Below, piece after piece: positions 47,961 to 64,000 of a stretch of 64,000 bases of DNA. How positions within the stretch are numbered: position 1 is the stretch's first letter; every line of letters begins with the position of its first letter. The position numbers and the translations under genes are program-made. The stretch lies in IMG/VR virus record IMGVR_UViG_3300044846_001307, positions 1 through 64,000 of that record; one strand, given 5' to 3'. The notes beneath the pieces are model-generated. The model saw only the letters and a program-made list of their open reading frames with translations. It was not told where the DNA came from and made no database searches. The DNA comes from a virus.

Positions 47961-50900
47961 TTATTTATTATATTGCCAAAAAGGACTATTAGTTATACCA
48001 CTGAAATTTTGTTGAGCATTTTGAATAGCTTTTTGATCCCCTGCTTGGTGGATTCTTCTAAACATATCAAAGTTCATACTAGCTGCTTGATTTAAAATTG
48101 AATTCATACTTTGTTCTTTTCCTTCAATTTCTCTACCACTTTTAACATCTACACCAAAATATTTGTAATGTGTTTTTTTAGATCCATCAGGCATCATCTC
48201 ATAAAACTCTCCAACACCTGAGTAATCTCCAACACCTGGAGTTTTCTCAATGGTATATTTACCATTACCAGAAGGATCAGTATATTTAATTGGTCCCTGT
48301 CTTAGGAGGACTTCTGTAGGAGTTGGGAACTGTTTTGAAAATAATGGATTGCTATCCCAGATATTTTTTGGTGCAATAAATGTAAGACCATTTTGGTAAA
48401 TAGCATCAATTTTATTTTTAAGAGCTTTTTCATCTCCACCATCTGACATACCTTTAATTACTTTTTCAATTACATCTCTTGGAGCTGTAAGTTTCATAGA
48501 ACCTAACTTTGTGCTTTCCATTGACATAGTTGTAGCATGAACCATAAAAGGTTTCAGTTCAGGATCTGAATTTAATCTTGATTGAAGTTCTCTTACAATA
48601 GCTGTTGCTTCATTTTGTGTAACACCAGTATTATCCCATTCTTCATCTGAACCAGGTAATTTGTTTCCATTAATGGAAATTCTAAATTTATTTTTATCTT
48701 GATTCCAGTTTGTACTTAAAATAGTACTAAACATTTGAGAGGCTGATTGATTTCCTGGATCCCAAGCAATACCTGGAGCAACTATCATAGTACCAGTCTC
48801 TGCAGCTAAAGCCACTTTATTACCAGATCTTTGAGTTCCACTAATAGGATATATTTGTAAACCTGTTTCAGGATTCATGTCTTTTGCAAGTTCTTCAAAT
48901 GATTGATCAAATACATCAGATACCCAAGAAGCTTTGTCTTTTACATTTTCTCTACCATCACCAATCATTCTAGGTAATGCTGTTAATGGAACAACATAAT
49001 TGTACCATTTTGATTCAGCTTTTTGATTTGTAGATTTACCAATACTAAAACCAAGAATAGCTGATATTTGTGCATCTACTTCAGGAGCCATAGCTTTAAA
49101 CTCATCTGTATTACCATGACTATCTAAAGCATATTTAGACATCATTAAGTTTACAGCTTGTTGAATTTTAGCATCATTTATATTTCTATATGTTTCTGGA
49201 TCTTTACTTTTTACATTCTGTACAATATAATTTATATCCTGTGTAAATTTAGTTCTGATTTTATCATAGTTATTATTTCTAACAACATTCAATGCATCAT
49301 CAGTTCTAGCAAGTTGATCTAGTTTGATCATTGATTGATCTCTGAAATACTCTTGTGCTAAACCACTTCCAGAGTGTGTAGCAGTCCAACTTTGCATCAA
49401 GTTATTTACGTTATAAATTTGACCAGAGTTAACTGTTCTAGCTGTAAAACCATTAGGATCAGATTTATATCCACTCCAAATTTGATTCCATACTTTTACA
49501 ATATCTGGTTTGTAATTCTTACTTCCTTCTTTTAGAATTCTTTTTGCAGTTGGTTCACTTGGATTTAATTTCAATACAAATTGAGCTAACTGAGCAGCAG
49601 TAAATGAATCACTAGTTACACCATTATTAATAAACTTCATTAAGTTATTCACTGGTTCAGTAGCATTCTGACTGATCATTTGATCTCTCATGTATTTATT
49701 TGCTGCATCAAGAGACATTTCTTCAGCTGTAGTTCCATCTGGTGTAACCATATTGATGTTAAAGCCTTGACTTTGAGGATTGGTATTTAATTGACCATCT
49801 TTAGTAAAGCCCCAGTATCCTTTTTTAACATTATAGTCAACAGCTTTTTGATACATTTTTGCTTGATTTGCTCTGTCTATTTCAGACTCTCTATCAAGAT
49901 GTGCTTGTTGTTGTCTTGCTCTAGCATGTTTATCTCTTAAAAATTCTAGACCTACAGGATTAGCTTTGTATTCAATCTCTTGATTAATTGTTGCATAATC
50001 ATTGGATGCTCTCATTATATCTTGCTCTGCATTAACAGAAGCAAATCCAGCATCTACTTTTAATCTAGCTAACTCAATATCACTTAAAATATCTTCATCA
50101 TAACCTTGAGTTGTACCAGTAGATTGTTTGTCATTAATTTGATCATTTAATTTTTTTGCATCATCTGCTACAGCAGTATTTACTTTTAATGCTTGATTAA
50201 GTCTATCAGCATATGATAATTGTTGAGGATTAACATTACCATTGTTTACATCTTTTTCAAGATTACCTTGTAAACTTTTAGTAGTACTTAAATCATCTTG
50301 AGCTTTAACATTTTTATCAGAAGCATAATTTTTTAACCAATCATATTTTTCTTTAATGTATTGTTTCTCTGCTTCTAATTTATTACCACCAAACTTTTCT
50401 GCATTTTGATTAGCATAAGTCATTCTTTCTACAAATGCTTTTTCTCTATACATATCTTGAATATCCGGTCTATTTGTATATTCAGCTAAAAACATATTTT
50501 GAAGAGTAGGTAAAATCAACTCTCCATTTTTCTTTCTTACTAAATATAAACCTGATTGGTCTGGTACTTGAGATACAGCTCCAACATTATACTTCTTAGC
50601 AAGATCCATATACTCTTGATATGCATTAACAAAAGGAGTATACTGTGCATTAGTCATATTTAAAGTACCCTCTAAATCAGCATCCTTAAACATTTGTCTT
50701 CTTAACTCTAAACCTTGGATACCAAGAGGCCACCATTGTTTTCTTTGTTTATCATCTTGTGAGGTTTTCAATGCATTAGCTGAGTTGTAAGTATTCTTCC
50801 AATTTTTAGTCCAAGCCATATCTTTCATTAAGTACTTGTCTTCATAGAAAGGTTTGAATACTTGCATAGCTTGATTTACATTCTGCTCTAGAGAAAGGTC

Positions 50901-51143
50901 AAGTCCGGATACTCTTTTTAGATTGAAGTCTATTTGTTTTAATAGTTCATCTTTCTTCTTGATATTTAAATCATGTGTTAAGTCAGCACCATAGAGTTGA
51001 CCATATAGATTATTTAAGGATTGCCAGTTTGTATCATACTGAGTTTGTTTTGTCTGCATGACATTTCCATAGAAATTTAAGTCAGGCTGAAACGGCTGAT
51101 AATCTGGTATATAATCTGTAACCCCTTGTAAATACGTTGCCAT
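47961..51143 (-). CDS. large putative virion protein
   Basis: 1060 aa, helical N-terminus, located in the structural/ejectosome cluster. Confidence 0.7.
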   Translation of the reverse strand: MATYLQGVTDYIPDYQPFQPDLNFYGNVMQTKQTQYDTNWQSLNNLYGQLYGADLTHDLNIKKKDELLKQIDFNLKRVSGLDLSLEQNVNQAMQVFKPFYEDKYLMKDMAWTKNWKNTYNSANALKTSQDDKQRKQWWPLGIQGLELRRQMFKDADLEGTLNMTNAQYTPFVNAYQEYMDLAKKYNVGAVSQVPDQSGLYLVRKKNGELILPTLQNMFLAEYTNRPDIQDMYREKAFVERMTYANQNAEKFGGNKLEAEKQYIKEKYDWLKNYASDKNVKAQDDLSTTKSLQGNLEKDVNNGNVNPQQLSYADRLNQALKVNTAVADDAKKLNDQINDKQSTGTTQGYDEDILSDIELARLKVDAGFASVNAEQDIMRASNDYATINQEIEYKANPVGLEFLRDKHARARQQQAHLDRESEIDRANQAKMYQKAVDYNVKKGYWGFTKDGQLNTNPQSQGFNINMVTPDGTTAEEMSLDAANKYMRDQMISQNATEPVNNLMKFINNGVTSDSFTAAQLAQFVLKLNPSEPTAKRILKEGSKNYKPDIVKVWNQIWSGYKSDPNGFTARTVNSGQIYNVNNLMQSWTATHSGSGLAQEYFRDQSMIKLDQLARTDDALNVVRNNNYDKIRTKFTQDINYIVQNVKSKDPETYRNINDAKIQQAVNLMMSKYALDSHGNTDEFKAMAPEVDAQISAILGFSIGKSTNQKAESKWYNYVVPLTALPRMIGDGRENVKDKASWVSDVFDQSFEELAKDMNPETGLQIYPISGTQRSGNKVALAAETGTMIVAPGIAWDPGNQSASQMFSTILSTNWNQDKNKFRISINGNKLPGSDEEWDNTGVTQNEATAIVRELQSRLNSDPELKPFMVHATTMSMESTKLGSMKLTAPRDVIEKVIKGMSDGGDEKALKNKIDAIYQNGLTFIAPKNIWDSNPLFSKQFPTPTEVLLRQGPIKYTDPSGNGKYTIEKTPGVGDYSGVGEFYEMMPDGSKKTHYKYFGVDVKSGREIEGKEQSMNSILNQAASMNFDMFRRIHQAGDQKAIQNAQQNFSGITNSPFWQYNK

Positions 51144-51157
51144 AATTTATCTTTGTG

Positions 51158-51202
51158 TAAATCTATTAAAATTTTTTAAGTTTACTAAACCTATAAAGTT
51201 TA
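51158..51202 (-). promoter_or_regulatory. conserved 45-nt intergenic element, copy 1 (candidate phage promoter)
   Basis: TAAACTTTATAGGTTTA...TAGATTTA aligns without gaps to 58966-59010. Confidence 0.55.
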
Positions 51203-54200
51203 TAGTAAAAATGGAAGCCATGAACTAATGTCAATATAACCACTGTTTTCACGTACTGAACCACCTTTTTTTGTTGTTTGTTGTGATCCATAAACATTAT
51301 TAATTATGTTTGGATCCGGTGCAGTATTAGTACCACCTCCACTTCCTCCAGTTCTAGCACAGTCTCTTAGTAGTGCTTCACTCATACCTGGATTGTTTGC
51401 TTTACATGCATCATATGCTTTTTGCCAACTACTAGTATTATTACTTCCTTGACCAGTAACTGTTTTATCAGTAGGTCTAAAATCCATACGTCCACCAGAA
51501 GGTGCATTAACAGCATAGTTAGGGTACATCTGGTTTAATGCATCTGTTTTCCATTTATTAGTAATACCCTGTGTATAATAGTTTCTAACATTATTTCTCA
51601 TTGCTAATTTAGCATTGTCAAACTGTTGATTAGCAACTGTATTTTGATCATACAATCTTTGATTAGTTGCTTGATTCAACATACTACTTTGATTTCTAAT
51701 ATCATTTGCTTTTAATTCAAATTGATTAGCAATATTGACATTGGCATTATTATACTTAGCTAGTATATCAGCAGCATTTTTAGCAGCAGCACCTTGAACA
51801 CCTGATGATCTTAAACCTTGAGGACCAGCAAACTGTGCTAAAGCATTTGTCTGAATAGCTGCTTGTTCAGCATTAGTACCAAGTTCTTTTGTAGGATCTT
51901 GAAACACAGGTCTAGGTACACCCATTGATAATGGAGGAGCTGCCGGCATTCTTTTCTTAAGACCCATCAGATCTCCAAATGCACCTGTAGTTTTAATAGT
52001 ATCTTGTAACCACATTCCAGGAGGTTCACCCGGTACAGGAATAGTTGTATCATCTGTACAAGGAGGACAATTACCATTTTGATCAGCAGTCATCTCTAAT
52101 ACAGTACCATCAGCTTTTTGACATGGACATGTTTTAGGTTTTGCTGGTTCACATGTACAGTTGTTTTGAGCATCTTTTGGTTTATAATTTGGTTTATTTG
52201 GATCATCACATTGACATGGACCACCTTCTGGTAGATCTTCAAATTCTAAATTTCTTTTACCAACCATATATTTATGACCAGCTGTTGTATCACCATATGT
52301 AGTATAAGTACCTCTTTTTGAACCATACCAATTTTTATCATTATAATCATATGTATCATCAAGAGGAGAAATTTTATTACCTATTGGACCATATAATGCA
52401 CCCATAGATGTTTCATCTGCTGCTCCTGAATGTACAAGACTAACATTACCTAAAAAATTATCCATTGCATATTTTGCATCAGGATCATTATTATAAGAAC
52501 CACTTTCAAAATCTTTATATGCTTTTGCATAAGCATGCATAGTAGATTGTTGTAATAATCTATCTTTTCCTTTAGGTTCTAATGGTACATTAAGTTTATC
52601 TGACATTGCTGCTACAGTGGTATAACCGGCATCAGTCATACGTTTTGTTTCAGCTTGAGCTTCAGATAATGTATAAGGTTTACCTGTTTTTGGATTTATA
52701 TATTTTTCATCTAAAATTTCTTGAGGAGTATCCAGTCTATTACCTATATCAGAAAACAATTGCGGATCTACTTCATTAGCTTCAAACATTAAATTTCTTT
52801 TCTGATGCATTAAAGCTGCATTTATAACTTCATCATCTGTTGGTAAATCTCCATATTTAACAGACCATTTTCTATTTGGATCTATAGATGTAGAAGTTTT
52901 ACCTTTCCATGCTGCTGGATCATCAACAATTTGTTTTGTATTTTTTATAATCTCAGCTCTAACGGTTGGGTTATTAAGATTATCTTTAATTAACATGTAT
53001 TGAGAAGCTGCCACTCTTCCTGTAGGTGTATCTGGAAAACCATCTAAGCCATCTGCTTTAATATCAGATCCACTAGGAATTGTAAAACCAGAACTTTTTA
53101 ATTTTTGAGTCTTAACTTTTCCATCTTCTCCTTTACGTGTTACTTGTATTTCAGCATTTTTATCTTTATCTTTTGCATTCCATATAGCTCTCTGAAGTTG
53201 ATCTTCAGTCATATTAGTTGCATCAATAATTACAGGTCCACCTTGTGTAGTTGCTATACCATCTCTAGCTTTAACCATACGTGTTATTGGACCTGATGCA
53301 GGAATTCTTTTTGGTCTACCTTGATAGTTTTGAGACATACCTGCACCCATTGACATACCATACTCTGCTTCTGGCATATCATAGAAAGGCATATCATAAC
53401 CACCCATAGACATTCCATAGGCAGCCATTGGTGGTGCCATTTGTTCTTCTTCCATAGGAGGTTGTTGACCCATTGCTTGTTCTTGTCCACCTTGACCTTG
53501 GGACATTACTGATTGAATAAGACCCACAGCCTCTTCTTGAGAAACACCCAATTGAGTAAATACTTGTACTACAGCTTCAGGTGGAAGACCATTCTGTAAT
53601 AAACTCATAACAACTTCAGCAGGTTCAGCACCTCTTTGTAAAGCACCTTGAACCTCTTGCATGATTTCCATCATCTGATCTTGACCACCTTGTGCACCTT
53701 GTGCACCTTGTTGTTCTATCATTGCCATTTCTTCAGGAGATGGTTGTTGCATACCTTCTGCAGCTCTTCTTAATCTTCTCATACCACCACCATACATCAT
53801 CATTTCTTCTTGAGACATTTGTGGTTGTTGAGCTTGTGCAACAGGTTGACCTTGGTTCATTTCCTCAGCTTGCATCATTTGATTCTGATCATACTCTGAT
53901 TCCATTGTCTGATCTGAATTCTCCTGTTGTTTCATTTGTTTTTTCAACTGATCATTTAATGCACTGATTTCTTTAGCAGGTAGAATTTGTTCTTCTGTAA
54001 GACCTCTTGCTTCCATACAAGGTTTAGCTACAGCAGGAATTCCTTGAGGAAAACCTTTCATTGATTCTTGAGCTAATGCTAAACAACCTAACTTAATGAC
54101 ATACTTCTTCATCATCAACTCAGCTGATTTTCTTTCTATAGCATCAGTATCAGGATCTTCTAAGATTTTTCTATACTTCTGTAAGTCATATTGTTTTGCA

Positions 54201-54601
54201 AGTTCTGCAGGAGTGTATGATTTGTTTATACCACCTTTACCAAACATAGCAAGTACAGCTGGATCTTTTATTCTCATACCTCTAGTATCACTAAAAATAA
54301 AAGTATCCTCAGGTAAATTTAATGGTACTCCACCATTATGGTGTCTTGGACCTTTAATGATTTGTTGTTCTGGCATTCCATCACCATTGATGTCTCCATA
54401 TACAGTTTCTCCACCCTCTGCTTCTAAGTTAGCTTCATCTCTTGGTACGGCAGTAATATACTTACTAGCTATAAGTTTAGGCTTCCCTATATAAGCATTA
54501 TAGTCTGCTCCACCCATTGCTGGAACATCATTTACTAAAGCACCTTGGACTTGATATCCTGTTTTTGCTTGAGGTAATTTTTTAATTCTAACTTTTATCA
54601 T
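51200..54601 (-). CDS. modular putative virion cargo protein
   Basis: EAEGGE...GPRHHNGGV...IFSD domain, Gln/Met-rich region, Cys-rich segment and repeated AxxG/xxGG motifs. Confidence 0.75.
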   Translation of the reverse strand: MIKVRIKKLPQAKTGYQVQGALVNDVPAMGGADYNAYIGKPKLIASKYITAVPRDEANLEAEGGETVYGDINGDGMPEQQIIKGPRHHNGGVPLNLPEDTFIFSDTRGMRIKDPAVLAMFGKGGINKSYTPAELAKQYDLQKYRKILEDPDTDAIERKSAELMMKKYVIKLGCLALAQESMKGFPQGIPAVAKPCMEARGLTEEQILPAKEISALNDQLKKQMKQQENSDQTMESEYDQNQMMQAEEMNQGQPVAQAQQPQMSQEEMMMYGGGMRRLRRAAEGMQQPSPEEMAMIEQQGAQGAQGGQDQMMEIMQEVQGALQRGAEPAEVVMSLLQNGLPPEAVVQVFTQLGVSQEEAVGLIQSVMSQGQGGQEQAMGQQPPMEEEQMAPPMAAYGMSMGGYDMPFYDMPEAEYGMSMGAGMSQNYQGRPKRIPASGPITRMVKARDGIATTQGGPVIIDATNMTEDQLQRAIWNAKDKDKNAEIQVTRKGEDGKVKTQKLKSSGFTIPSGSDIKADGLDGFPDTPTGRVAASQYMLIKDNLNNPTVRAEIIKNTKQIVDDPAAWKGKTSTSIDPNRKWSVKYGDLPTDDEVINAALMHQKRNLMFEANEVDPQLFSDIGNRLDTPQEILDEKYINPKTGKPYTLSEAQAETKRMTDAGYTTVAAMSDKLNVPLEPKGKDRLLQQSTMHAYAKAYKDFESGSYNNDPDAKYAMDNFLGNVSLVHSGAADETSMGALYGPIGNKISPLDDTYDYNDKNWYGSKRGTYTTYGDTTAGHKYMVGKRNLEFEDLPEGGPCQCDDPNKPNYKPKDAQNNCTCEPAKPKTCPCQKADGTVLEMTADQNGNCPPCTDDTTIPVPGEPPGMWLQDTIKTTGAFGDLMGLKKRMPAAPPLSMGVPRPVFQDPTKELGTNAEQAAIQTNALAQFAGPQGLRSSGVQGAAAKNAADILAKYNNANVNIANQFELKANDIRNQSSMLNQATNQRLYDQNTVANQQFDNAKLAMRNNVRNYYTQGITNKWKTDALNQMYPNYAVNAPSGGRMDFRPTDKTVTGQGSNNTSSWQKAYDACKANNPGMSEALLRDCARTGGSGGGTNTAPDPNIINNVYGSQQTTKKGGSVRENSGYIDISSWLPFLL

Positions 54602-54609
54602 CGGGTTCT

Positions 54610-57600
54610 TTATAAATATTCAACTTGTCCTCCTGCTGCTAAGAATTGTTCTAATTCTTCTGGAGTCATATATACTTCTTCATCATCCATGTAACCACCA
54701 TCTTGCATGTAACCACCATATTGAGCAGCATTACTGTTTGCATAATTACCAAAGGTTGCTCTACTGTTTCTGTCTGATCCCATTTCATCGTATCTAAACA
54801 TACCAGTTTTACTACCTATATCTCCCCAATCTCCCTTATCAGTTTGATTAGATGCCATTACATTAGCCATTGGATCAAACTTGTCTAACAACATATTGTT
54901 TTCAATTGGATTGTTTTGCATTCTTTCCATAAAACCTAGACCTGCATTAGCCATTGAATTAAATGCATTAACTCCTGCTTCACCATCAAAGTTTCTAGCT
55001 GTTTTACGTTGTCTTTCTACACCAACATACTGATTTGGATTAGGTTGAGGTGCTGGCTCTTGAGGTATAATTTCTTGACCTTGGTTACCTAATGTATGAC
55101 CAGTATTTGCAGTTTCAGCATAAGAACCTGTCCCAGTCTGAGTTATAAAGTTGAATGGGTTTTGTTGTTGTGGCATTTTGTTAGGAGCTTGTGCACCAAA
55201 CAGATCATTTTCAAATTGAGATTGTTGAGAATAAGGATTATATCCTGCTTGATTTTGACCAGCTCCCATACCAAAACCAGTACCTACTTCAAATGCACCA
55301 CCCATTCTTTTAAAAGAAGGATTTTTTATTCTATCAACTAATGTTTTAAGAGTACCATATGCATTCTTTACATTATCAACTGCATCTCTAGCACCATAAT
55401 AAACTTGATCAGTATTGTATCTAGCACCACGTCCTTGTTCATATCTCTCAGCTTGTCTTAGATTTCTTTGACCTCTTCTAGTTTGCTCATCCCACTCTTC
55501 ATCACTAAATTGGAATCTTTCTTTTGCTTGATCTTCTAAACGATCTCTTCTACTTGTCTTTTCAGGCTTGTCATTGTTTTTGTAATTAACCATTGACCAA
55601 CCATCTTGAAGTGCATCTTTTACCATTTTTTTATCAAGACGACCAAGATTAGACTTGTTTCCAGAACCTCTACGGTTATCTAACATACCCTCAAGGTTTT
55701 GTAAATCACCCATAGGAACTCCAGTACCATCACCATCTACTTGATAGATGTCAATCCATTTTTTTCTACCACCTAATAAACCTTTCTTAGTAGTGTAACT
55801 TGCAACAGGTTTGTCTGGTATAAGACCATTATAAGATCTACCATCATTTAAATAATATGGAGAACCTTTTTGTTTAACCCATGATCCTGCAGCACCAAAC
55901 ACTGGATTCCACGGAACTAAGTTACGACCATAACCACCTGGATTTCTAACCTGTGTATACTTATAGTTCATTTTAGCTATTGGAATACACATGTTGTATT
56001 TGTCATTCCAAACTGTACCAGGACCACACTGAGTTTTCTTTGATTGCAAGCTTGCACTTGAATTTGATACACAAGCAGATCCATTCCAAGTATATCCTGC
56101 TGGACACTTCTGAGTACTTCCTTCTTCTTCTTGTTCTTCACCACCTATATTAGTATAATCTTTCAATGCTTCATCATAAAAATTTTGATAATCATCATAT
56201 GTCCTATCATCTAATTTAACATCAACATCATAGTCCCCATCTGGATTAGCAGCTTCCCAATCTTCTCTTTCACTTTTTCTATTTAATATTTCATTATCTG
56301 CCCATTCTTGATAATTCATTTTATCTTGCATACCTCTTAGCTCTCCAGCTTTGTTAGTAATAGTAATACCATCTCTAGCTTGTTCTAAATCATATGGTTC
56401 ATAGTATTCACTCTCATCACCACCATAAATAAATTTAACAAGTGGTTCTTCAGCATTCATATCTACAAATCCACCAAATGCTGCAGTAAAATCTGTATTC
56501 ATTGGTTCTTCTTCAGCAAGATTTTCTTTATAACCATCTTGCGTTAACATGTTTAGAATCTTTGGATTACCCTGAGCATTCTTATAAATATCTTTTGATA
56601 TAGCTTTATTAGAATTAGTTTTTAATGTACTAATGAAAGAGTTTTTCATGTTAGCAACATCATCTGTCAAAGTATCTTTTCTATTACCTTTACCTAATGC
56701 TTCAGTATCACCACCTTCTGCATACATTGAAACCATTTTTTTAATAAATCTGTTTTCAGAAACACCACCTTTTGCAAAATCATCAGGTAATACTTGGTTT
56801 TGTAAATTTGGGTTTACAACATTTGAATCTTGGTATCTATAATAGTTATAGTCACTAGGAGTTTGTCCTTTTAAGAATTTTAAACTATCTGGTGTCCGTA
56901 ATGAATTCGGATCAATAGTACCATCTTCTCTAATAGGAGTAGGGTCTAAAACTCTACTTGGCCCTACATCAGTACCACATGTACATTTACCAAGAGCATT
57001 TTTAGGTTGGAAGTTTGGTAAATTACGATCCTCACATTGACACGGATGTGCTAATGCATCATATGTTTGATAACCTAGATAACCTAAACCACCACCAATA
57101 AGTGTAGTCTTTAAACCTAATCTATACTTATAGTTAATAGCATTCTTAATATCAGATGCTGTTTGTGAATAAGGTATAGCAGCAGGGTCTTGAATGTTTG
57201 GTCCAAGAGCCATGTTTGCATAACCATATACAGGTTGATCAATATTTTCAATTCCTTTTGCACCAGTTCTGAATAATTGGTTTAATCCAGTTGTTCCATA
57301 TGTTTCTAAACCTCTACCAATTTTTCCTCTGTTACTTAAAGTATCCCATGTAGATGGTGGTAGACCTGTTATATCAACTTTGTTTACACCTTTAAAATCA
57401 TCCATGTAATTAGGAAAAGGAGTTGTTCCAAAATCTTTTAATAACAACTCATTCATGCTACCTGTAAATGAAGAACCAATTGGTCTTGTAACTCTTGATT
57501 TTGTTTGAACACCCATTGTTAATGGATTACCTAATGGATCAAATACATTTAATCCACCTGTCTCAGGGTCTTGATTGTAATAAAATCTATTTTTAAATGT

Positions 57601-58950
57601 AACTTCTTTAGCTTTAGGAGGTGTTGTACCAAAAGGTAAATTTTGGTTAGGACCAAAAGTATGTTTAAACTCAAAAAATTTATTACCAGCATCATCTTCA
57701 CCACCAATAACTTTTGTTTGAGGAGGGTAAATACCACTAATCAAACCTTCTTGTTGAGACATGTTACCGTAAAGGTCTTCTAATGTAAAAGGTTCATTAT
57801 TGGTTCTTTCTAATTGCATTATTAAATCTTGAACATCTGCTTGATCTAATACTAACCTATCAGCTTGTAAGCTACCATCAGTTCCACCAGCATATGTCCC
57901 ATTCTGACTAAACACTCCTGTTTTTGGAGTAGCTCCATTAATAACATTCCAAAGCTCAGTTCTATTCTGTGTAAATGGAGTAGCTAATTTTGGAGCAAAC
58001 TTTGCTCCTACATAAGGTAACCTAGTCATTGCATCACCAATACCTGTAAATACAGGTAATGCTTTACGTACTGTAGATAAATTAGATAAAGGATTTGCTT
58101 TGTTAGCATATCCAATAGTTGGAACATACTCAGCTAATTTTTGAAGTGCATTTTTAACAGGAGGTGTATTTAATCCATATTGTGCTCTTGGTAAATAATC
58201 TTGAGGTTGGTAAGAATCAGATGCACTTCTGTAATCACCTAAGTAATAAGATAGATCTGGAGTTGCTGGCATCTGTTGTGCACCTGGTGTCATAGCAATT
58301 AAATCTTCCATAGAGAAAGGTTTTCCTTCAGGTGTTTTCCCCGGTGTACCATACTGATTTATTACAGTTTGTTCTCTACTTGGTTGTTGGTTAGGGTTCA
58401 TATCTTCAAATTCAGGATACTCTCCACCATCATCAAAGTAACCACCATATTTAAAAGCTTGTTCTTCTTCATCCTGTGTCATTTCTAAAGCAGAATTCTG
58501 ATTCATTTGTGCATCTTCCTCATCATATAAACCACCATCAGAAATTGCTAGTTCTTCTTGCTCTGCATCTGAAGCTGCTCTTTCATTATCTTCATCTGTT
58601 TGTTGCTGTGGATTAGCTGGTTCTTCTGTTTGAGTTTTATCTTCAACTAATTCTGGATCAACATAACCTTCTTCTGCAAGTTTACTCATAGCAGATTTAA
58701 TAAGCATTATAGATGTATTCTCATCTAATGCATACTCATTAATAAGTTGATTAAATAACATATCAGGTGTAGCATCATTTTTTAATGATATATAAACCTG
58801 ATCATATATTTGATTTAGTTTAGCCGGATCCATACTTGGAGTTCCTACTTCCATACCCATAGCTGCTTTTTCTAAAAACTTAGCAGTTTTGTTATAGTAC
58901 CCTGGAGTTTCACCTGGAAGTGCTTTTCTAATCCTTACTTGCTTCTTCAT
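54610..58950 (-). CDS. modular putative virion cargo protein
   Basis: 1446 aa with many AxxG/xxGG motifs and three Cys micro-domains. Confidence 0.75.
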   Translation of the reverse strand: MKKQVRIRKALPGETPGYYNKTAKFLEKAAMGMEVGTPSMDPAKLNQIYDQVYISLKNDATPDMLFNQLINEYALDENTSIMLIKSAMSKLAEEGYVDPELVEDKTQTEEPANPQQQTDEDNERAASDAEQEELAISDGGLYDEEDAQMNQNSALEMTQDEEEQAFKYGGYFDDGGEYPEFEDMNPNQQPSREQTVINQYGTPGKTPEGKPFSMEDLIAMTPGAQQMPATPDLSYYLGDYRSASDSYQPQDYLPRAQYGLNTPPVKNALQKLAEYVPTIGYANKANPLSNLSTVRKALPVFTGIGDAMTRLPYVGAKFAPKLATPFTQNRTELWNVINGATPKTGVFSQNGTYAGGTDGSLQADRLVLDQADVQDLIMQLERTNNEPFTLEDLYGNMSQQEGLISGIYPPQTKVIGGEDDAGNKFFEFKHTFGPNQNLPFGTTPPKAKEVTFKNRFYYNQDPETGGLNVFDPLGNPLTMGVQTKSRVTRPIGSSFTGSMNELLLKDFGTTPFPNYMDDFKGVNKVDITGLPPSTWDTLSNRGKIGRGLETYGTTGLNQLFRTGAKGIENIDQPVYGYANMALGPNIQDPAAIPYSQTASDIKNAINYKYRLGLKTTLIGGGLGYLGYQTYDALAHPCQCEDRNLPNFQPKNALGKCTCGTDVGPSRVLDPTPIREDGTIDPNSLRTPDSLKFLKGQTPSDYNYYRYQDSNVVNPNLQNQVLPDDFAKGGVSENRFIKKMVSMYAEGGDTEALGKGNRKDTLTDDVANMKNSFISTLKTNSNKAISKDIYKNAQGNPKILNMLTQDGYKENLAEEEPMNTDFTAAFGGFVDMNAEEPLVKFIYGGDESEYYEPYDLEQARDGITITNKAGELRGMQDKMNYQEWADNEILNRKSEREDWEAANPDGDYDVDVKLDDRTYDDYQNFYDEALKDYTNIGGEEQEEEGSTQKCPAGYTWNGSACVSNSSASLQSKKTQCGPGTVWNDKYNMCIPIAKMNYKYTQVRNPGGYGRNLVPWNPVFGAAGSWVKQKGSPYYLNDGRSYNGLIPDKPVASYTTKKGLLGGRKKWIDIYQVDGDGTGVPMGDLQNLEGMLDNRRGSGNKSNLGRLDKKMVKDALQDGWSMVNYKNNDKPEKTSRRDRLEDQAKERFQFSDEEWDEQTRRGQRNLRQAERYEQGRGARYNTDQVYYGARDAVDNVKNAYGTLKTLVDRIKNPSFKRMGGAFEVGTGFGMGAGQNQAGYNPYSQQSQFENDLFGAQAPNKMPQQQNPFNFITQTGTGSYAETANTGHTLGNQGQEIIPQEPAPQPNPNQYVGVERQRKTARNFDGEAGVNAFNSMANAGLGFMERMQNNPIENNMLLDKFDPMANVMASNQTDKGDWGDIGSKTGMFRYDEMGSDRNSRATFGNYANSNAAQYGGYMQDGGYMDDEEVYMTPEELEQFLAAGGQVEYL

Positions 58951-58965
58951 AACATGTTATATATA

Positions 58966-59010
58966 TAAATATACTAAATTTTAATTTAATCAATACACTT
59001 TAAAAGTTTA
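58966..59010 (-). promoter_or_regulatory. conserved 45-nt intergenic element, copy 2 (candidate phage promoter)
   Basis: TAAACTTTTAAAGTGTA...TATATTTA. Confidence 0.55.
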
Positions 59011-62000
59011 CTCATCCTCAATGATATAACCATCTTTAATATACTGATCTATTTCTTTTTTAGATAACTTGGCTACCATACCACCTTTTTTATTTTTTGG
59101 TTTTACCCACGGGTTAGTTAATAACTCTTCAGCTTTACTATAAACTTTTTTAACAGGCTCTGTAACATATTCATCAAGATATTCTTGAGGTGCAGCCATA
59201 CCCATACCAGCAAGAGCTGCAGCATAAGCAGCACCATAACCATATCGTTCTATTAAACTTTGTAAATTTCCTCCTTGAGTTCTCCAATCAAACTCATCAT
59301 TTCTAAGTTTATCCATGTTAACAGGAATGTATCTATTAGAAAAAGGTAATCTTCTATGGAATGAAAGACCTGGTTCAGATAAAGGAATACTAGGCTTTCT
59401 ATTACCAAGAGCATCTGTAACTAAAACACCATTTCTATTAGACATTTTTTGAAAACTTATATCAGAACCAGGAACATTTCTATTAAATTGAGCACCAAAT
59501 ACTCCTGAATATTGTTCATTAGGTTCATTAAGTTCAGCCCAATTACCTTCAGACATAATTTGATTTTTACCCATTCTTAATAATGGACCAGCTGAAGGAT
59601 TTAATTCTCCAGACATTTTTACATAATCTAATGTATCACCAAATTTTCTAAATGCTGTACCATCCATAGGATTCATTTTTTCTCCATAGAAAGGAAGAGC
59701 ATTTAAAGGACTTCCTGTAAATGGACCCATTTTTTCAATGCTTGTACCAAACAAAGGTATCCTTACTGGATTTATCATTATAGGTGCTATATTTTTAGCT
59801 AATGAATTTACAGTACCTATAGTACCTATGTTAGCCATTCTTGCTGCAGTTTTACCTGATGCACCTAAAGATTGTAATCCTTTAACAATTGCACCAGTTC
59901 TAGCTTTAATTAAACCACCATCTGAATAACCTAACAAATTTGTATTCATTGGTTGTTGAGGTACTCTCCATCCAGGATTAACTTTATTAATATTAAACTC
60001 ACCAAAACCTAAACCTTTACTTAATGTATTAATAGGTTTTGTGATAGATTGAAATTTTGGTTGACCTATACCAGGAATAGCAGTACTTGGATTACCCATA
60101 AATATTCCAGATCCAGGTGTTGCAGCATTATATGTAAATGCATATCTACTTTCCGGACTAAGATTTGCTATCATAGTTCCCGGAGTTTTTAAAGTATTAA
60201 GTGTCTTAAAAGCATTTTTAGCAACTCCTACAGCAGGTAGTGCACCTAAAGCATCTAATGCAGCTGTACCATAGTTTCCTTTCTCAAAGTTATCATATGC
60301 ACTTTCAGCAAAAGCTGGTGCATTTGCATAGTAACTAAGTTGACTAATTGGATTATTAAATACATTAGACATAAGTGGTTTTATCAAATTGGGCTTATAC
60401 CATTTAGCACCTTTTGTAATTGCATTTAATCCTTTGATACCACCATATGTGGATCCAACATCCCATAATTCTTTCCCTACAGCAGGAAGAAACTCTCCTT
60501 TATCATAACCTTCTCTTAGATTGAAACCAATCTTAAATGGATTAAAAGGTTGTAAAAGAAAGTTAAAAGGACTCATTACACTTACAGGCATTGTACCTAA
60601 ATCCTCTCCTGTCTCATCTTCAATCTGTTTTCTTTGAGAATAGGTTAAATTTTTAGGTCCATCCCACATACCTTCTCTCGCATTCATTGCATAGTACATA
60701 CAATCAAAAGGATGTTTTAAACAATCTTTTACTTTAGCTCCAGTATTTTCATCAATATTAAATTGATTTCCTGAAACTTGTTTTATTGTGTCAGGATTTT
60801 TTTCATATAAAAGTCTAGCCTCTATACTGTTATTTAATATATCGGCATATGTTTCTTTTTTATCACCAGTTTTTTGTTCTAATAATTTTTGCATTGCTTG
60901 ACTAGGATCCTCTTGAAATGATTTTAATATTTCAAGTTTACTTTTTTGTGTAGAACCTGCATTATCTAATGCTTGTTTAAGAACTTGTTTAGTAGCATCT
61001 GATTGAAAATTTTGCATGTATGCTAAATAAGCATCATTAAAATCTTTAGCTTTAGCAGTATTTGCAGCAGCTAGTGCATTCTTTTGATTTAAAGTTTGGT
61101 TCAATAATGCATTGTTCTGTCTAACATTAGCCATAGCATCATCTTTTGCAAAAGTAAGTCCATCATACTGACCTGCTTTTCCATACTTATCCATCCAATC
61201 TGAATAAGCTTTCTCACCTCTTTCAGTTTTTTGAGATTGATAATTAATAAAATCTCCTAAGTTATTTGTACCACTATGATATCTCTTTTCCCATGCAGTC
61301 ATTGGGTCATCAGATTCTAAAAATATTTTACGATCCTGATCAACCTTAGCTCTATCAGTTCCGGGTATAGAATCTATATTTGAAACAAGACTTGCATATG
61401 CATCATCTATTATTTTATTTGTAGGTTTTTCAAATGTAGATTTTAAACCTGACTGTGTCCCTATTTTAGGAGAAAGTCCTTTAATAACTTGGTCTACAGG
61501 TTTACCTTGCTCAATGGCTTTTGTAAGTATACTCTTAGTTACTTCAGCTTCATAGTTAGCTTTAGCTGCTCCCATTAAATCTCCAAGTTGTTCTTTAACT
61601 TGTTTAGGATCTAAACCCCAATAGTTTTTAAATTGCTCTGCTTGAAAACCATTTGTAATAATTCTATCTTGAACTATGTTTTTAGGAAACAATTCTATAT
61701 AACCATCTTTCTTATGAACAAGAAAATTATTTTTTAACTCAGCTTCTTCTTCCGGTGAAACATTAGATTCTGGAATTTTTTTCCAAGGTTCAATTTTATC
61801 TTGTTTTTTAGATTTAGCAAATGTCTCACGATATTTATCACTCTCTTCTTTATACCATCTTTTTTGTTGTTCATTTGCTTTAGTACGTATATCATTTATG
61901 TCTTTAGCTAAAGCTGTATTTCTAGCTAATTGTTTAGCTTCAAAGTCTTTTTGTATTTGATTCATTTCTGCTTTAGAAGCAGCAATATATTCTGATTCAG

Positions 62001-62268
62001 GTAAACATTGTCCATTAAACTCATACATACCTGGAGGACATCCTTCACCTCTCATATAACCTGGCAATGATTCATTCCAATATGATGGTTGCTGTACTCC
62101 TTGTACTTCTACCATAGGAGAAGCTGGTGTTTCCCCATCATATGGATCTTGTGATTTATTTGAAGATTTAAATTTACTTTTTTTAAGTCTACTATTTTTA
62201 ATTGTTTTACCAAATCTGGCTTGAGGTAATTCCTGTGGAATACTAGTTATTCTGTACTTTGCCATCAC
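59008..62268 (-). CDS. modular putative virion cargo protein
   Basis: 1086 aa with a CPPG micro-domain, coiled coils, hydrophobic Gly/Ala helices and xxGG motifs. Confidence 0.75.
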   Translation of the reverse strand: MMAKYRITSIPQELPQARFGKTIKNSRLKKSKFKSSNKSQDPYDGETPASPMVEVQGVQQPSYWNESLPGYMRGEGCPPGMYEFNGQCLPESEYIAASKAEMNQIQKDFEAKQLARNTALAKDINDIRTKANEQQKRWYKEESDKYRETFAKSKKQDKIEPWKKIPESNVSPEEEAELKNNFLVHKKDGYIELFPKNIVQDRIITNGFQAEQFKNYWGLDPKQVKEQLGDLMGAAKANYEAEVTKSILTKAIEQGKPVDQVIKGLSPKIGTQSGLKSTFEKPTNKIIDDAYASLVSNIDSIPGTDRAKVDQDRKIFLESDDPMTAWEKRYHSGTNNLGDFINYQSQKTERGEKAYSDWMDKYGKAGQYDGLTFAKDDAMANVRQNNALLNQTLNQKNALAAANTAKAKDFNDAYLAYMQNFQSDATKQVLKQALDNAGSTQKSKLEILKSFQEDPSQAMQKLLEQKTGDKKETYADILNNSIEARLLYEKNPDTIKQVSGNQFNIDENTGAKVKDCLKHPFDCMYYAMNAREGMWDGPKNLTYSQRKQIEDETGEDLGTMPVSVMSPFNFLLQPFNPFKIGFNLREGYDKGEFLPAVGKELWDVGSTYGGIKGLNAITKGAKWYKPNLIKPLMSNVFNNPISQLSYYANAPAFAESAYDNFEKGNYGTAALDALGALPAVGVAKNAFKTLNTLKTPGTMIANLSPESRYAFTYNAATPGSGIFMGNPSTAIPGIGQPKFQSITKPINTLSKGLGFGEFNINKVNPGWRVPQQPMNTNLLGYSDGGLIKARTGAIVKGLQSLGASGKTAARMANIGTIGTVNSLAKNIAPIMINPVRIPLFGTSIEKMGPFTGSPLNALPFYGEKMNPMDGTAFRKFGDTLDYVKMSGELNPSAGPLLRMGKNQIMSEGNWAELNEPNEQYSGVFGAQFNRNVPGSDISFQKMSNRNGVLVTDALGNRKPSIPLSEPGLSFHRRLPFSNRYIPVNMDKLRNDEFDWRTQGGNLQSLIERYGYGAAYAAALAGMGMAAPQEYLDEYVTEPVKKVYSKAEELLTNPWVKPKNKKGGMVAKLSKKEIDQYIKDGYIIEDE

Positions 62269-63998
62269 TATATTTTTTCAAACGTATAACCTAATTTCTT
62301 TAATTGTTGCATAGTAGCTTCATCTATTTCATCTCCAAGTTCATAATCAATAGAACCTCCTTGTTGAGCATATTGCATTTCTTCTTGAGAATCATTTTTT
62401 GCAATATAGTTAAATAGATCTTTTAATCCTTTCTCATCTTTTACAACTTTGAAAAGATTGTATAATGCAGGATCATAATTAGGATTATTTTTATCCAATG
62501 CACCATTTTTCTCTGCTTCAGATTTCCAAGACTTAATATCCTCATCTGTAATAACTTGTGTTGGTTGAAGACCTTTACTTTGTCTTACCTCAAATATTAA
62601 AGACTGTATGTTGTCTTGACTAGGATCTGTAAGATAATCATAATAATCCCTAGCTGCTTTTTTATCTGCACCTTTAAGATCACCCCAACCTTCTTCAAAT
62701 GATTTTAAGTTAGGTTGAATAATAATTTGTTCAGCAGGTAATATTTTATCACCAAATTTATCCCAAAGTCTTGTTCTTTCTTCATGTGCAATAGTTGAAT
62801 TTAATTCTTTTGGATCAGCTTTCAACTTTTCATTTAGTAATATTTTTTCAGCATCACCCTCATCATCATACACTAACTCTCCCATTACATTTGGATCATC
62901 ATTAATTATACTAGCATACTCATAAGGCACAGATTGATTTAATTCATCCAATAGTGGAGATTGCGGATTATAAACTGGTAAGAATTGTTTTAATGTACGT
63001 TCATATGTCTTATTACCTATTTCATCAAAAGGTAATTGTCTATTCCCATACCAGTTACTAAAGTAAGAGTTTGCATCTATTAAATTACTTGAAGGATCAT
63101 TTTCTTCAATAGGTGTATCCATTTGAACAGGAGCTGGGCCACCATTTCTTTTTTGGTTTAAAGCACCTCCATATTTTCTTTCAGCATCTATTAATTTCTG
63201 TTTATTACCAGTTGTTAAATACTCTTCAAATGATTTTACTAATTTTTTTTCAACGTCACTTTGTTGTTCTTGATTTTTTGAAGCAGCATTTAAGTAAGAC
63301 ATTATCAAAGCATCATCAAGATCTTTATATAACTCCTGTTGTTTTATTTTCTTTACATCACTCTCATCAAAAACTGTTATTTCTCTTGGATCAAAAGCAC
63401 CAGTAAAACCTTTATCTCTTAATGCATCTGCAGCTTGAGCTTGACTTGTTCTAATTAAATCTTCATTACCAGTTGGATTAAAACTTGTTCTTAAAGCCTG
63501 TTCATACTCATATCCATTTTGAAAATTTCTTGGATCTACACCATTTATCAAGCCTACTTTTTTTATAAAGTCATTAGTCATTGGTGCATTATAATTTAAA
63601 AAGTTTTGAGGATTTTTAAATAAAGCTTCTGAAACATAAGGTGTAAATGTTTTAGATTGAGGTATTAAACCATAACCACCTAAACTACTACTTCTAGCTG
63701 CACTTGCAGCAAAGTCAGGATGTTGTGTAAAATATGCACCACCTTCTTGATTACCTAAACCACTACCTCTAAAAGATCTATCAAAATTTTCAAATGATGT
63801 TTTATGTCCAGTTAAACCACCTGTTATTATTGGTTGATCACCATCATACATAATTGGATTGTAACCACTATACTGAGTTAAAAAATCACTCTCTAGCATA
63901 GGAACTTTTTCCAATAATTTTTTTGTTTGCTGTAAGTCTAACTTTGGCAATTCAAACTGAGCACCTGGAATAGCAGCTGGAAGATTAATCTGACTAGA
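62268..63998 (-). CDS. 5'-truncated cargo protein with ADP-ribosyltransferase-like (ART-PolyVal-like) and degenerate zincin-like domains
   Basis: frame is open to the window edge (SSQINLPAAIPGAQFELPK...); FENFDRSFRGSGLGNQEGGAYFT...LRDKGFTG...EITVFDESDVK; IAHEERT. Confidence 0.7.
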   Translation of the reverse strand, partial: SSQINLPAAIPGAQFELPKLDLQQTKKLLEKVPMLESDFLTQYSGYNPIMYDGDQPIITGGLTGHKTSFENFDRSFRGSGLGNQEGGAYFTQHPDFAASAARSSSLGGYGLIPQSKTFTPYVSEALFKNPQNFLNYNAPMTNDFIKKVGLINGVDPRNFQNGYEYEQALRTSFNPTGNEDLIRTSQAQAADALRDKGFTGAFDPREITVFDESDVKKIKQQELYKDLDDALIMSYLNAASKNQEQQSDVEKKLVKSFEEYLTTGNKQKLIDAERKYGGALNQKRNGGPAPVQMDTPIEENDPSSNLIDANSYFSNWYGNRQLPFDEIGNKTYERTLKQFLPVYNPQSPLLDELNQSVPYEYASIINDDPNVMGELVYDDEGDAEKILLNEKLKADPKELNSTIAHEERTRLWDKFGDKILPAEQIIIQPNLKSFEEGWGDLKGADKKAARDYYDYLTDPSQDNIQSLIFEVRQSKGLQPTQVITDEDIKSWKSEAEKNGALDKNNPNYDPALYNLFKVVKDEKGLKDLFNYIAKNDSQEEMQYAQQGGSIDYELGDEIDEATMQQLKKLGYTFEKI

Positions 63999-64000
63999 TA

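What the first reader, a model, noticed from the sequence alone, without database searches (positions are those of the whole stretch)
54557..62372. Matched C-terminal and N-terminal tags across three successive gene junctions (head-to-tail docking code?)
Seen: three proteins end, just after a GG motif, in the same helix-Gly-strand pattern: IDEATMQQLKKLGYTFEKI (62268), LSKKEIDQYIKDGYIIEDE (59008) and MTPEELEQFLAAGGQVEYL (54610). In each case the next gene begins with a shared basic strand followed by LP: MAKYRITSIPQELPQARFG, MKKQVRIRKALPG and MIKVRIKKLPQAKTG. The pattern stops cleanly: the 51200 protein lacks the C-tag (it ends WLPFLL) and the next protein (47961) lacks the N-tag. Inference: the acidic C-tag and basic N-tag may pair by beta-strand complementation, linking cargo proteins into an ordered chain for packaging or ejection, analogous to PKS/NRPS docking domains. 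The flanking G/GG sites could release the tags. I know of no description of this in crAss-like phages.
Basis: partly seen in the sequence, partly recalled or inferred. Interest (0 to 1): 0.85.

Follow-up and report, generated by a model that had tools for sequence, protein, structure and literature searches.

The report
Split junction module in crassvirus cargo
Four consecutive virion "cargo" genes of a crAss-like phage are cut apart inside a short repeated protein module, so each gene keeps one half of the junction; the halves may clip the injected proteins into an ordered chain, but binding has not been shown.

Summary
Genes A (62268 to beyond the window), B, C and D lie on the minus strand, just downstream of the crassvirus muzzle gene. 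A, B and C end in the tag; B, C and D begin with the basic leader. Both tags persist in about 60 related IMG/VR loci, with many synonymous changes.

The tags are not two simple partners:
- **C-tag:** one copy of a 25-35 aa module (GG…[LM][TS]xxE[IL]xx[YF]xxxG[GY]x[IV]E..). It matches 1,218 protein clusters and lies between effector domains (SET, lysozyme, VanY, amidase, ART) as often as at C-termini.
- **Internal copies:** they are followed by LPxAQxG or ISVPxLxKAQxG, which is the second half of the N-tag.
- **Basic strand (KVRIKK):** it occurs only at new N-termini. Of 64 distinct N-tag genes, 58 follow a gene ending in the module by HMM, and 4 more do by eye.
- **Subtypes:** they pair strictly (α→B, β→C, γ→D). 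α and γ are never internal.

A-D therefore look like a fragmented polyvalent cargo protein split at homologous junctions that are fused in some relatives. Non-covalent head-to-tail re-association is the best reading (about 0.4). No structural support was obtained. The rivals are autonomous signals and a processing site.

The parts
62268..64000 (-). Gene A, C-terminal 577 codons. The gene continues to contig position 66053 and encodes 1,261 aa. It is a polyvalent cargo protein that starts MYNKKVL and has no N-tag. It carries a SET domain and one internal module, both outside the window.
62271..62372 (-). C-terminal module of A, alpha subtype (...QQGGSIDYELGDEIDEATMQQLKKLGYTFEKI)
   Evidence: Profile hit at 20.4 bits. 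The alpha subtype is only ever terminal and always precedes a B-type N-tag.
62209..62265 (-). N-tag of B (MAKYRITSIPQELPQARFG): a basic strand followed by ...LPQARFG
   Evidence: It resembles the ISVPELTKAQKG stretch that follows internal modules.
59008..62265 (-). Gene B, 1,085 aa, with an N-tag and a C-terminal module
59011..59112 (-). C-terminal module of B, beta subtype (...KKGGMVAKLSKKEIDQYIKDGYIIEDE)
   Evidence: Profile hit at 41.0 bits
58900..58950 (-). N-tag of C (MKKQVRIRKALPGETPG), followed by YYNKTAKFL.KA
54610..58950 (-). Gene C, 1,446 aa, with an N-tag and a C-terminal module
54613..54711 (-). C-terminal module of C, gamma subtype (YGGYMQDGGYMDDEEVYMTPEELEQFLAAGGQVEYL)
   Evidence: Profile hit at 37.4 bits. 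Alignment A1. The gamma subtype is only terminal and always precedes a D-type N-tag.
54557..54601 (-). N-tag of D (MIKVRIKKLPQAKTG)
   Evidence: In alignment A2, V4, I6, P10, A12 and G15 are at least 90% conserved.
51200..54601 (-). Gene D, 1,133 aa, with an N-tag only. It is a conserved core cargo protein (invariant NLEAEGGE at residues 58-65) and occupies the position of crAss001 cargo protein 1.

Best explanation
**Shown**
- A, B, C and D lie between the crassvirus muzzle gene and the virion-RNA-polymerase block. They are polyvalent virion cargo or ejection proteins.
- Their domains are separated by a 25-35 aa module: GG, a short strand, the helix [LM][TS]xxE[IL]xx[YF], then G[GY] and the strand x[IV]E... 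Inside a protein, this module continues into (ISV)PxLxKAQxG, into LPxAQxG, or into a YKxGG linker.
- In this phage three gene boundaries fall inside that unit. The upstream gene keeps the module. The downstream gene keeps LPxAxxG and has gained a basic strand, [KR]V[RK]I[KR]K, which is never seen internally.

**Inferred**
- The basic N-terminal strand adds onto the exposed, acidic, Glu-bearing last strand of the upstream module. This replaces the lost covalent link.
- The subtype pairs (alpha with B, beta with C, gamma with D) set the order A>B>C>D.
- The cargo is therefore packaged and threaded out of the tail as one ordered chain.
For: **Context**
- The gene upstream of A matches PF25731 crAss_MUZ (4.6e-28).
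- F, G and H match crAss001 gp47, gp50 and gp49.
- A has a SET domain. Module-bearing relatives carry lysozyme, VanY, Amidase_2, ART-PolyVal and SET domains.

**Junction statistics**
- Non-redundant junctions: both tags 48, neither 115, one only 12. Nine of those 12 are tags just under threshold.
- Of 64 distinct N-tag genes, 58 follow a terminal module by HMM and 4 more by eye. Two lineages are true exceptions.

**Basic strand**
- The N-tag profile has no internal hit in the loci or in 150 module proteins.

**Fused against split**
- Internal modules are followed by LPKAQFG, LPQAQEG, LPMAQNG or ISVPELTKAQKG.
- L021 and L037 A' proteins end at a beta module directly before a C-type gene, whereas A homologues such as L039 carry the module internally and read on; the alignment does not place these two copies in the same columns.

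**Boundary conditions**
- A lacks the N-tag and D lacks the C-tag. Minimal X|D systems have one of each.

**Cognate subtypes**
- Alpha>B 8 of 8, gamma>D 26 of 26 and beta>C 18 as scored; L018 and L021 also read as beta>C by eye, leaving two beta>D pairs in the single-junction X|D loci L032 and L034. Beta tags sit on either A or B bodies.
- Alpha and gamma are never internal: 0 of 37, against 235 internal beta copies.

**Other**
- The bodies of A-D share no similarity beyond the tags.
- Selection is at the peptide level.
- AlphaFold2 on the internal module gives a confident helix flanked by unpaired extended segments.
Against: - No binding has been measured or modelled.
- The module is common inside proteins, where no basic strand follows it, so it must have a function that does not need the N-tag.
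- Subtype linkage could come from recombination between repeated modules, which carries the 3' half of a module along with the downstream gene, rather than from co-adaptation.
- Two lineages have an N-tag after a gene that lacks the module: L015-17 (ends GGDLSKLNKFIH) and L028/L050.
- In L011/L019 the basic strand sits at the C-terminus of the upstream protein.
- crAss001 gp45 starts with a similar basic leader (MAKKKIKRRGKMPP), yet that genome has no module at all.
- The loci are phylogenetically related, so the junction counts are not independent events.
Confidence: 0.4

Rival explanations
1. The two tags are independent signals that do not touch each other. The module is an autonomous unit carried by every cargo domain, for example to bind the capsid interior, portal, tail lumen or DNA, or a host target after ejection. 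The basic N-terminal leader is a virion-incorporation or ejection leader that every separately translated cargo protein needs, like the T4 capsid-targeting sequence. On this view adjacency is a by-product: genes split at domain boundaries, which are marked by modules, and cassettes are shuffled by recombination between modules.
For: - The module is as frequent internally as terminally, and 127 of 150 module proteins also end in one. This fits 'one module per domain unit'.
- crAss001 gp45 has a basic leader but no module anywhere in its genome.
- There are exceptions with an N-tag after a gene lacking the module.
- In crAss001, short cargo segments bind the tail rings and the muzzle (PMC10172136).
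Against: - A, the first cargo protein, has no basic leader although it is translated separately.
- The break always falls at the same point of the unit, between the x[IV]E.. strand and LPxAxxG, in three junction types with unrelated protein bodies.
- The alpha and gamma subtypes exist only at termini and only before one N-tag type.
Confidence: 0.3
2. The module plus the following AQxG(G) stretch is a proteolytic processing site. Polyvalent cargo proteins would be cut there into single effector domains by a phage peptidase, during maturation or after ejection. Separately encoded genes would simply mimic the processed products, and their terminal remnants would be vestigial or would serve as exosites for the peptidase.
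For: - Polyvalent proteins are proposed to be processed by built-in zincin-like peptidases, and P1 DdrB is processed before packaging (PMC5512222).
- Modules sit exactly at domain boundaries.
- The invariant [IV]-x... [IV]E motif resembles the T4 prohead protease (L/I)xE sites. This is from my own knowledge and was not tested.
Against: - Both halves are strongly conserved at split junctions, where nothing needs cutting.
- The terminal-only alpha and gamma subtypes and the extra basic strand are not explained.
- No peptidase family was detected in A-H by Pfam.
Confidence: 0.15
3. The shared ends are trivial. Either B, C and D are tandem paralogues that inherited both ends, or the similarity reflects composition or RNA-level signals for translational coupling.
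For: The genes are tandem and the genome is AT-rich. MKK starts are common in such genomes.
Against: - The bodies of A-D share no similarity beyond the tags and a short CxC motif.
- Synonymous changes are abundant inside the tags.
- No other gene of the contig has either tag.
- Single-junction systems have one tag on each of two unrelated proteins.
Confidence: 0.03

Closest known systems
Polyvalent proteins of phages and conjugative elements (Iyer, Burroughs, Anand, de Souza, Aravind 2017, PMC5512222)
   Same: Large virion-associated polypeptides that string together unrelated effector domains. Here these are SET, ART-PolyVal, lysozyme, VanY, amidase and a zinc ribbon. They are encoded among late genes and are presumed to be delivered with the DNA.
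   Different: - A regular 25-35 aa punctuation module between the domains was not found under any Pfam or PHROG family here.
- The string is broken into several genes at homologous module sites, with a leader specific to the new N-termini.
- No zincin peptidase was detected.
crAss001 cargo proteins C1 (gp45) and C2 (gp46) and the ejection model of Bayfield et al. 2023 (PMC10172136)
   Same: - Same genomic slot: after the muzzle gene gp44 and before the gp47/gp50/gp49 homologues.
- gp45 has a basic N-terminus and is thought to leave N-terminus first.
- The authors state that the order of extrusion probably depends on interactions among the cargo proteins.
   Different: - No sequence or profile similarity of D to gp45 or of E to gp46. 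There is only a language-model feature match of D to a crAss_CARG1 cluster (0.92).
- crAss001 has no module and no extra cargo genes between the muzzle gene and gp45.
Docking domains of modular polyketide and non-ribosomal peptide synthases
   Same: Short C-terminal and N-terminal elements on successive, separately translated polypeptides. Cognate pairs set the order. The same junction is covalent in some systems and split in others.
   Different: There is no sequence or structural relationship and the biology is different (virion cargo, not an assembly line). Binding is not demonstrated here. The resemblance concerns how it might work, not family membership.
T4 capsid-targeting sequences and T7 gp14/gp15/gp16 ejection proteins
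   Same: Internal virion proteins that are packaged and then ejected ahead of the DNA. T4 internal proteins use a short N-terminal leader. T7 gp16 carries a cell-wall hydrolase domain, as A-type relatives do.
   Different: T4 leaders are cut off and do not pair with another cargo protein. T7 core proteins stack as rings rather than by terminal tags. Neither has the repeated module.

Membership tests
Polyvalent proteins (Iyer et al. 2017) | Two or more unrelated effector or enzymatic domains in one phage-encoded polypeptide | tested here: met
   - A has a SET domain (25.5 bits, cut-off 22.4).
- Module-bearing relatives have Phage_lysozyme, VanY (82.8 bits), Amidase_2, ART-PolyVal (53.5 bits) and SET.
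- No family was detected in B, C or D themselves.
Polyvalent proteins (Iyer et al. 2017) | Late-gene or virion context implying delivery into the host | tested here: inconclusive
   The position between crAss_MUZ and the gp47/gp50/gp49 homologues is shown. Presence in virions was not testable.
Polyvalent proteins (Iyer et al. 2017) | Associated zincin-like metallopeptidase for processing | tested here: not met
   No peptidase family in A-H by Pfam at E<=0.01. This feature is frequent in the family (about 36% of members) but is not obligatory.
Crassvirus cargo protein 1 (PF25725 crAss_CARG1) | Match to the family profile above its cut-off | tested here: not met
   - No match in the contig at E<=10.
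- None of 22 D homologues match.
- hhalign of D against gp45: probability 0.1.
- Only an Atlas feature match to a CARG1 cluster: 0.92, 182 shared features.
Pfam DUF7210 (PF23843, 38 aa) | Match above the 27-bit gathering score | tested here: not met
   The best hits are 22.5-23.2 bits on two relatives' C-termini. There are none on the window's tags or anywhere in the contig.
Docking-domain-type head-to-tail coupling (functional class, not a sequence family) | Element at the C-terminus of the upstream polypeptide and at the N-terminus of the downstream one; the first lacks the N-element and the last lacks the C-element | tested here: met
Docking-domain-type head-to-tail coupling (functional class, not a sequence family) | Distinct cognate pairs at successive junctions | tested here: inconclusive
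   Subtypes associate strictly, and alpha and gamma are terminal only. Physical linkage through recombination could give the same pattern.
Docking-domain-type head-to-tail coupling (functional class, not a sequence family) | Direct, specific binding of the two elements | not testable with these tools
   This needs peptide binding or co-purification experiments; see Tried and rejected for the modelling attempt.
Gene fission of one unit (Rosetta-stone logic) | The two halves occur contiguously in one polypeptide in other genomes | tested here: met
   - Module plus LPxAQxG, or plus ISVPxLxKAQxG, occurs inside A-type proteins.
- A' of L021 and L037 ends in the beta module directly before a C-type gene, while L039 A has the module internally; no alignment places the two copies at the same site.
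- The basic strand itself is absent from the fused forms.

The most novel reading that the evidence does not exclude
All virion cargo of this crass-like lineage, from the polyvalent effectors to the RNA-polymerase giants, would be assembled as one ordered head-to-tail train that fixes the order of ejection.

- A>B>C>D would be joined non-covalently by the split module plus basic-strand junctions.
- F>G>H would be joined by disulfides between their unique terminal cysteines. This cysteine pattern is conserved as far as crAss001 gp47>gp50>gp49, even though those genes are not all adjacent there.
Probability: 0.2. Interest if true: 0.85.

Novelty: new variant of a known kind. Interest (0 to 1): 0.62.

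Why it matters
How podovirus-like phages sort, pack and then eject megadaltons of protein in a defined order is an open question. The crAss001 structure paper could only say that the order probably depends on interactions between the cargo proteins.

This locus offers a concrete, sequence-defined candidate for such interactions. It also provides a natural series of fused and split junctions, so the idea can be tested directly with peptides, tag swaps and virion mass spectrometry.

Whatever its mechanism, the module is a useful annotation handle. It marks domain boundaries in more than a thousand clusters of otherwise unannotated giant phage proteins, and so flags injected effectors such as SET methyltransferases, ADP-ribosyltransferases and cell-wall hydrolases.

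Tried and rejected
**Modelling**
- Complex prediction of the last 80 aa of C (alignment A1) with the first 80 aa of D (A2): no verdict. The score was 0.13 against a mark of 0.32, controls were not run, and the partner's own fold was uncertain. This is neither support nor evidence against.
- AlphaFold2 of a whole C-type protein carrying both tags (L015, 803 aa, 18-row alignment): mean pLDDT 47.6 and N-tag below 50. It cannot tell whether the two ends of one protein meet.
- AlphaFold2 of A's internal module (71 aa): only the helix is confident.

**Family and similarity searches with no result**
- PHROGs and Pfam on A-F gave nothing useful.
- PDB sequence searches with D, E, the muzzle protein and a D profile gave nothing.
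- tblastn of C and D against 50,697 phage records gave no match.
- hhalign of D against gp45 and of E against gp46 gave nothing.
- DUF7210 and crAss_CARG1 are not met.

**Wider genomic context**
- The adjacency test therefore rests on about 60 related IMG/VR loci.
- Ten module proteins looked up by cluster are all metagenomic and named 'hypothetical', except one named GH24 lysozyme.

**Ideas considered and dropped**
- Read-through or frameshift fusion of the genes. The downstream frames are offset by -1 at A|B and C|D, but there is no canonical slippery heptamer, and B|C has a 57-nt spacer.
- Tandem paralogy.
- RNA-level conservation.
- Release of the tags at the flanking GG sites: there is no evidence either way.


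Full report
**1. What is there**

The window is low-GC (31-36%), and its right half is transcribed leftwards. From 64000 down to 24677 there is a run of very large minus-strand genes:
- A (62268 to beyond the window end)
- B (59008-62265)
- C (54610-58950)
- D (51200-54601)
- E (47961-51143)
- F (40564-47955, 2,463 aa)
- G (30615-40562, 3,315 aa)
- H (24677-30613, 1,978 aa)

The whole contig is a 76,724-bp IMG/VR virus record. On it, A is 1,261 aa and starts MYNKKVL, so it has no N-tag. It lies directly after a 1,846-aa protein that matches Pfam crAss_MUZ, the crassvirus muzzle protein, at 4.6e-28. F, G and H are weak but specific relatives of crAss001 gp47, gp50 and gp49 (blastp 1.6e-5, 4.5e-13 and 7e-4 against that small set).

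A-E therefore occupy the slot that in crAss001 holds the cargo proteins gp45 and gp46. D and E show no sequence or profile similarity to gp45 or gp46. The only link is a language-model feature match of D to a crAss_CARG1 cluster, which is a lead and no more.

**2. The tags are real and under selection**

Searching IMG/VR with D, C and A gave about 60 related loci, with D identity down to 33%. The C-tag and N-tag recur in all of them.
- In alignment A1 (last 80 aa of C-type proteins) the final 24 columns are the conserved part. The Gly of GG is invariant and the Glu of x[IV]E is at least 90% conserved.
- In A2 (first 80 aa of D) V4, I6, P10, A12 and G15 are at least 90% conserved.
- Codon comparison shows many synonymous differences inside both tags, so the peptide is what is conserved.
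- In the contig's six frames, the C-tag profile hits only A (internal), A, B and C. The N-tag profile hits only B, C and D.
- Apart from the tags and a short CxC motif, A, B, C and D share no similarity. The tags are therefore portable elements on unrelated bodies, not the inheritance of tandem paralogues.

**3. The C-tag is a repeated module**

The C-tag profile also hits inside A-type proteins. This includes the window phage's own A at residues 369-402 (FIEAELTPKEIQEYAKGGFIIEDISVPELTKANLGK), which lies just beyond the window.

A 36-column profile (A3, 60 sequences) was searched against 1.84 billion representative proteins.
- It found 1,218 clusters at E<=1e-3 and 298 at E<=1e-10.
- The best 150 carry 2-4 copies each. 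Of these, 127 have one at the very C-terminus, and together they hold 221 internal copies.
- The modules flank recognisable domains: Phage_lysozyme, VanY, Amidase_2, ART-PolyVal, SET and a CKKCGW...CHKCGG zinc ribbon.
- These are polyvalent proteins in the sense of Iyer et al. 2017.
- All ten members looked up are metagenomic and essentially unannotated.
- No Pfam family reaches threshold on the module. DUF7210 comes closest, at 22-23 bits against a cut-off of 27, on two relatives only.
- crAss001 has no copy.

**4. The N-tag is half old and half new**

Internal modules are followed by one of three continuations:
- (E/D)ISVPxLxKAQxG
- LP(K/Q/M)AQxG
- a D(D/N)Y(K/Q)xGG linker

LPQAKTG of D and ...SIPQELPQARFG of B are therefore the normal continuation of the module.

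The basic strand ([KR]V[RK]I[KR]K) is different. The N-tag profile has no internal hit in any locus protein or in the 150 module proteins. It appears only where the chain has been broken.

Fused and split forms of the junction both occur:
- The short A' proteins of L021 (363 aa) and L037 (425 aa) end in a beta module and are followed directly by a C-type gene.
- A homologues such as L039 A and the window's own A carry a beta module internally and read on.
- Whether these copies occupy the same site cannot be said: the alignment places them in different columns.

**5. Adjacency**

Among non-redundant same-strand junctions, 48 have both tags, 115 have neither and 12 have one. Nine of those 12 are visible tags that fall just under threshold.

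Counting from the N-tag side, there are 64 distinct N-tag genes.
- 58 follow a gene whose last residues match the module profile.
- 4 more follow obvious alpha or gamma tags.
- Two lineages are true exceptions: L015-17, where the upstream gene ends ...GGDLSKLNKFIH, and L028/L050, where it ends with the helix only.
- One module-ending gene (L033) is separated from D by an inserted GIY-YIG endonuclease gene.

The tags fall into subtypes that pair strictly:
- alpha (LGYTFEKI) comes before B-type leaders, 8 of 8.
- beta (GYI[IV]E..) comes before C-type leaders: 18 by the classifier, plus L018 and L021, which were misfiled and are C-type by eye.
- gamma (GGQVEYL) comes before D-type leaders, 26 of 26.
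- The remaining two beta tags precede D in the minimal X|D loci L032 and L034.

Beta tags precede C whether they sit on a B body or an A body. Alpha and gamma are never internal (0 of 37), whereas beta is internal 235 times and terminal 131 times.

These counts come from related genomes and are not independent events.

**6. Mechanism**

The secure statement is architectural. A-D are a fragmented polyvalent cargo protein whose gene boundaries fall at one precise point of a repeated module-plus-linker unit, and both halves are retained.

The most economical functional reading is as follows.
- The halves still work together.
- The basic leader, present only at split junctions, adds as a strand onto the acidic, Glu-bearing last strand of the upstream module.
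- This restores the connection non-covalently.
- The subtype pairs keep the order.

This fits the boundary conditions (A has no leader, D has no module). It also fits the crAss001 authors' remark that extrusion order should depend on cargo-cargo interactions.

Binding is inferred, not shown. I put this reading at about 0.4. The main rivals are:
- autonomous signals, with adjacency explained by fission at domain boundaries and recombination between modules (0.3);
- a processing site (0.15).

Points against docking:
- the abundance of internal modules with no leader;
- the two exception lineages;
- L011/L019, where the basic strand is attached to the upstream protein;
- the basic leader of crAss001 gp45 in a genome with no module.

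**7. Structural attempts**
- A monomer model of the internal module gives a confident helix (TPKEIQEYA, pLDDT about 86) with extended, unpaired flanks.
- A whole C-type protein is mostly low confidence.
- The single complex job gave no verdict and is reported only as tried.

**8. A parallel seen in passing**

F has a single cysteine and it is the last residue. G has two, at residue 3 and at the penultimate residue. H has one, at residue 3.

In 13 distinct F homologues (1,377-2,050 aa), the only cysteine lies within the last three residues in 12. In all 11 of these where the next protein is present in the locus, its first cysteine lies at residue 3-5.

crAss001 shows the same pattern: gp47 has one Cys at 2339 of 2341, gp50 has Cys at 5, 1334 and 2404 of 2412, and gp49 has one at 5. 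Yet gp47 is on the opposite strand from gp50 and gp49. The structure paper reports disulfides in the tail and portal vertex but none between cargo proteins. This suggests head-to-tail disulfide linkage of the RNA-polymerase giants. It makes a general 'cargo train' idea more plausible, but it is a separate observation. Another first-stage note on this genome had also recorded it.

**9. Verdict**
- The module and the fused/split junction series appear to be undescribed in the literature and libraries available here.
- The finding is best filed as a new variant within polyvalent or ejection cargo proteins, with a testable docking hypothesis.

Noticed in passing
window 40567-40569 (F last codon), 40554-40556 and 30621-30623 (G Cys3 and Cys3314), 30605-30607 (H Cys3): F, G and H have 1, 2 and 1 cysteines in 2,463, 3,315 and 1,978 residues, and all lie at the adjoining termini. 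The same holds in 12 of 13 F homologues and in crAss001 gp47, gp50 and gp49 (apart from one extra Cys in gp50). This suggests head-to-tail disulfide links between the virion RNA-polymerase proteins.
   Followed up: partly
window 51069-51143 (E N-terminus) and 51203-51274 (D C-terminus): E's first 25 residues (MATYLQGVTDYIPDYQPFQPDLNFY) are the most conserved part of the protein across all loci. D ends in a conserved GG..G[YF].Y.....PF[IL][LM]. The D|E junction also looks constrained, as does E|F (…NPFWQYNK / MAEE…).
   Followed up: no
L065 3641-3883 (contig 65640-65882, outside the window): A SET (lysine methyltransferase) domain at residues 58-138 of cargo protein A (Pfam 25.5 bits, cut-off 22.4). 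In some relatives (L050, L058, L026) the first cargo protein starts directly with the SET domain.
   Followed up: partly
L016 13025-13660; L033 9048-9881; L029 12522-13298; L038 7357-8004: ORFs that look like GIY-YIG homing endonucleases by motif (e.g. ...GIYKITN...; not run against Pfam) sit exactly at cargo gene junctions. The L016 ORF begins with E's first six residues (MATYLQ). The L033 ORF ends in a module-like sequence (…EAGIEFEYVDDIIY). The conserved junction DNA seems to serve as a homing target.
   Followed up: no
L016 7480-7541, L019 6220-6276, L047 11880-11940, L054 11800-11861; protein P0150 C-terminus; P0053 N-terminus: A second short motif, GG..(S/P)KL(N/K)KF.(H/R/Q), sits at the C-terminus of some upstream proteins. 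In others it lies near the N-terminus of the downstream one (compare YYNKTAKFL in C of the window). The gene boundary therefore slides relative to conserved linear motifs.
   Followed up: partly
window 56977-57045 (C residues 636-658) and 52151-52219 (D residues 795-817): A shared cysteine-rich CxC…CxC motif is the only similarity between the bodies of C and D (blastp 1.9e-6). It may be a metal-binding knuckle.
   Followed up: no
window 54407-54430: An invariant NLEAEGGE motif (within PR.EANLEAEGGETV.GD.NGDG.PE) lies about 55 residues into D in all 26 homologues aligned. Its function is unknown.
   Followed up: no
window 25538-25654: A LysM peptidoglycan-binding domain lies inside the 1,978-aa gp49-like protein H (Pfam 26.4 bits).
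   Followed up: partly
L008/L009 4600-5165: Gene B appears to be frameshifted. The 863-aa ORF stops early, and the module-bearing end (…KLSKKEIDQYIKDGYIVEDE*) continues in another frame. This is either an assembly error or a real break.
   Followed up: no
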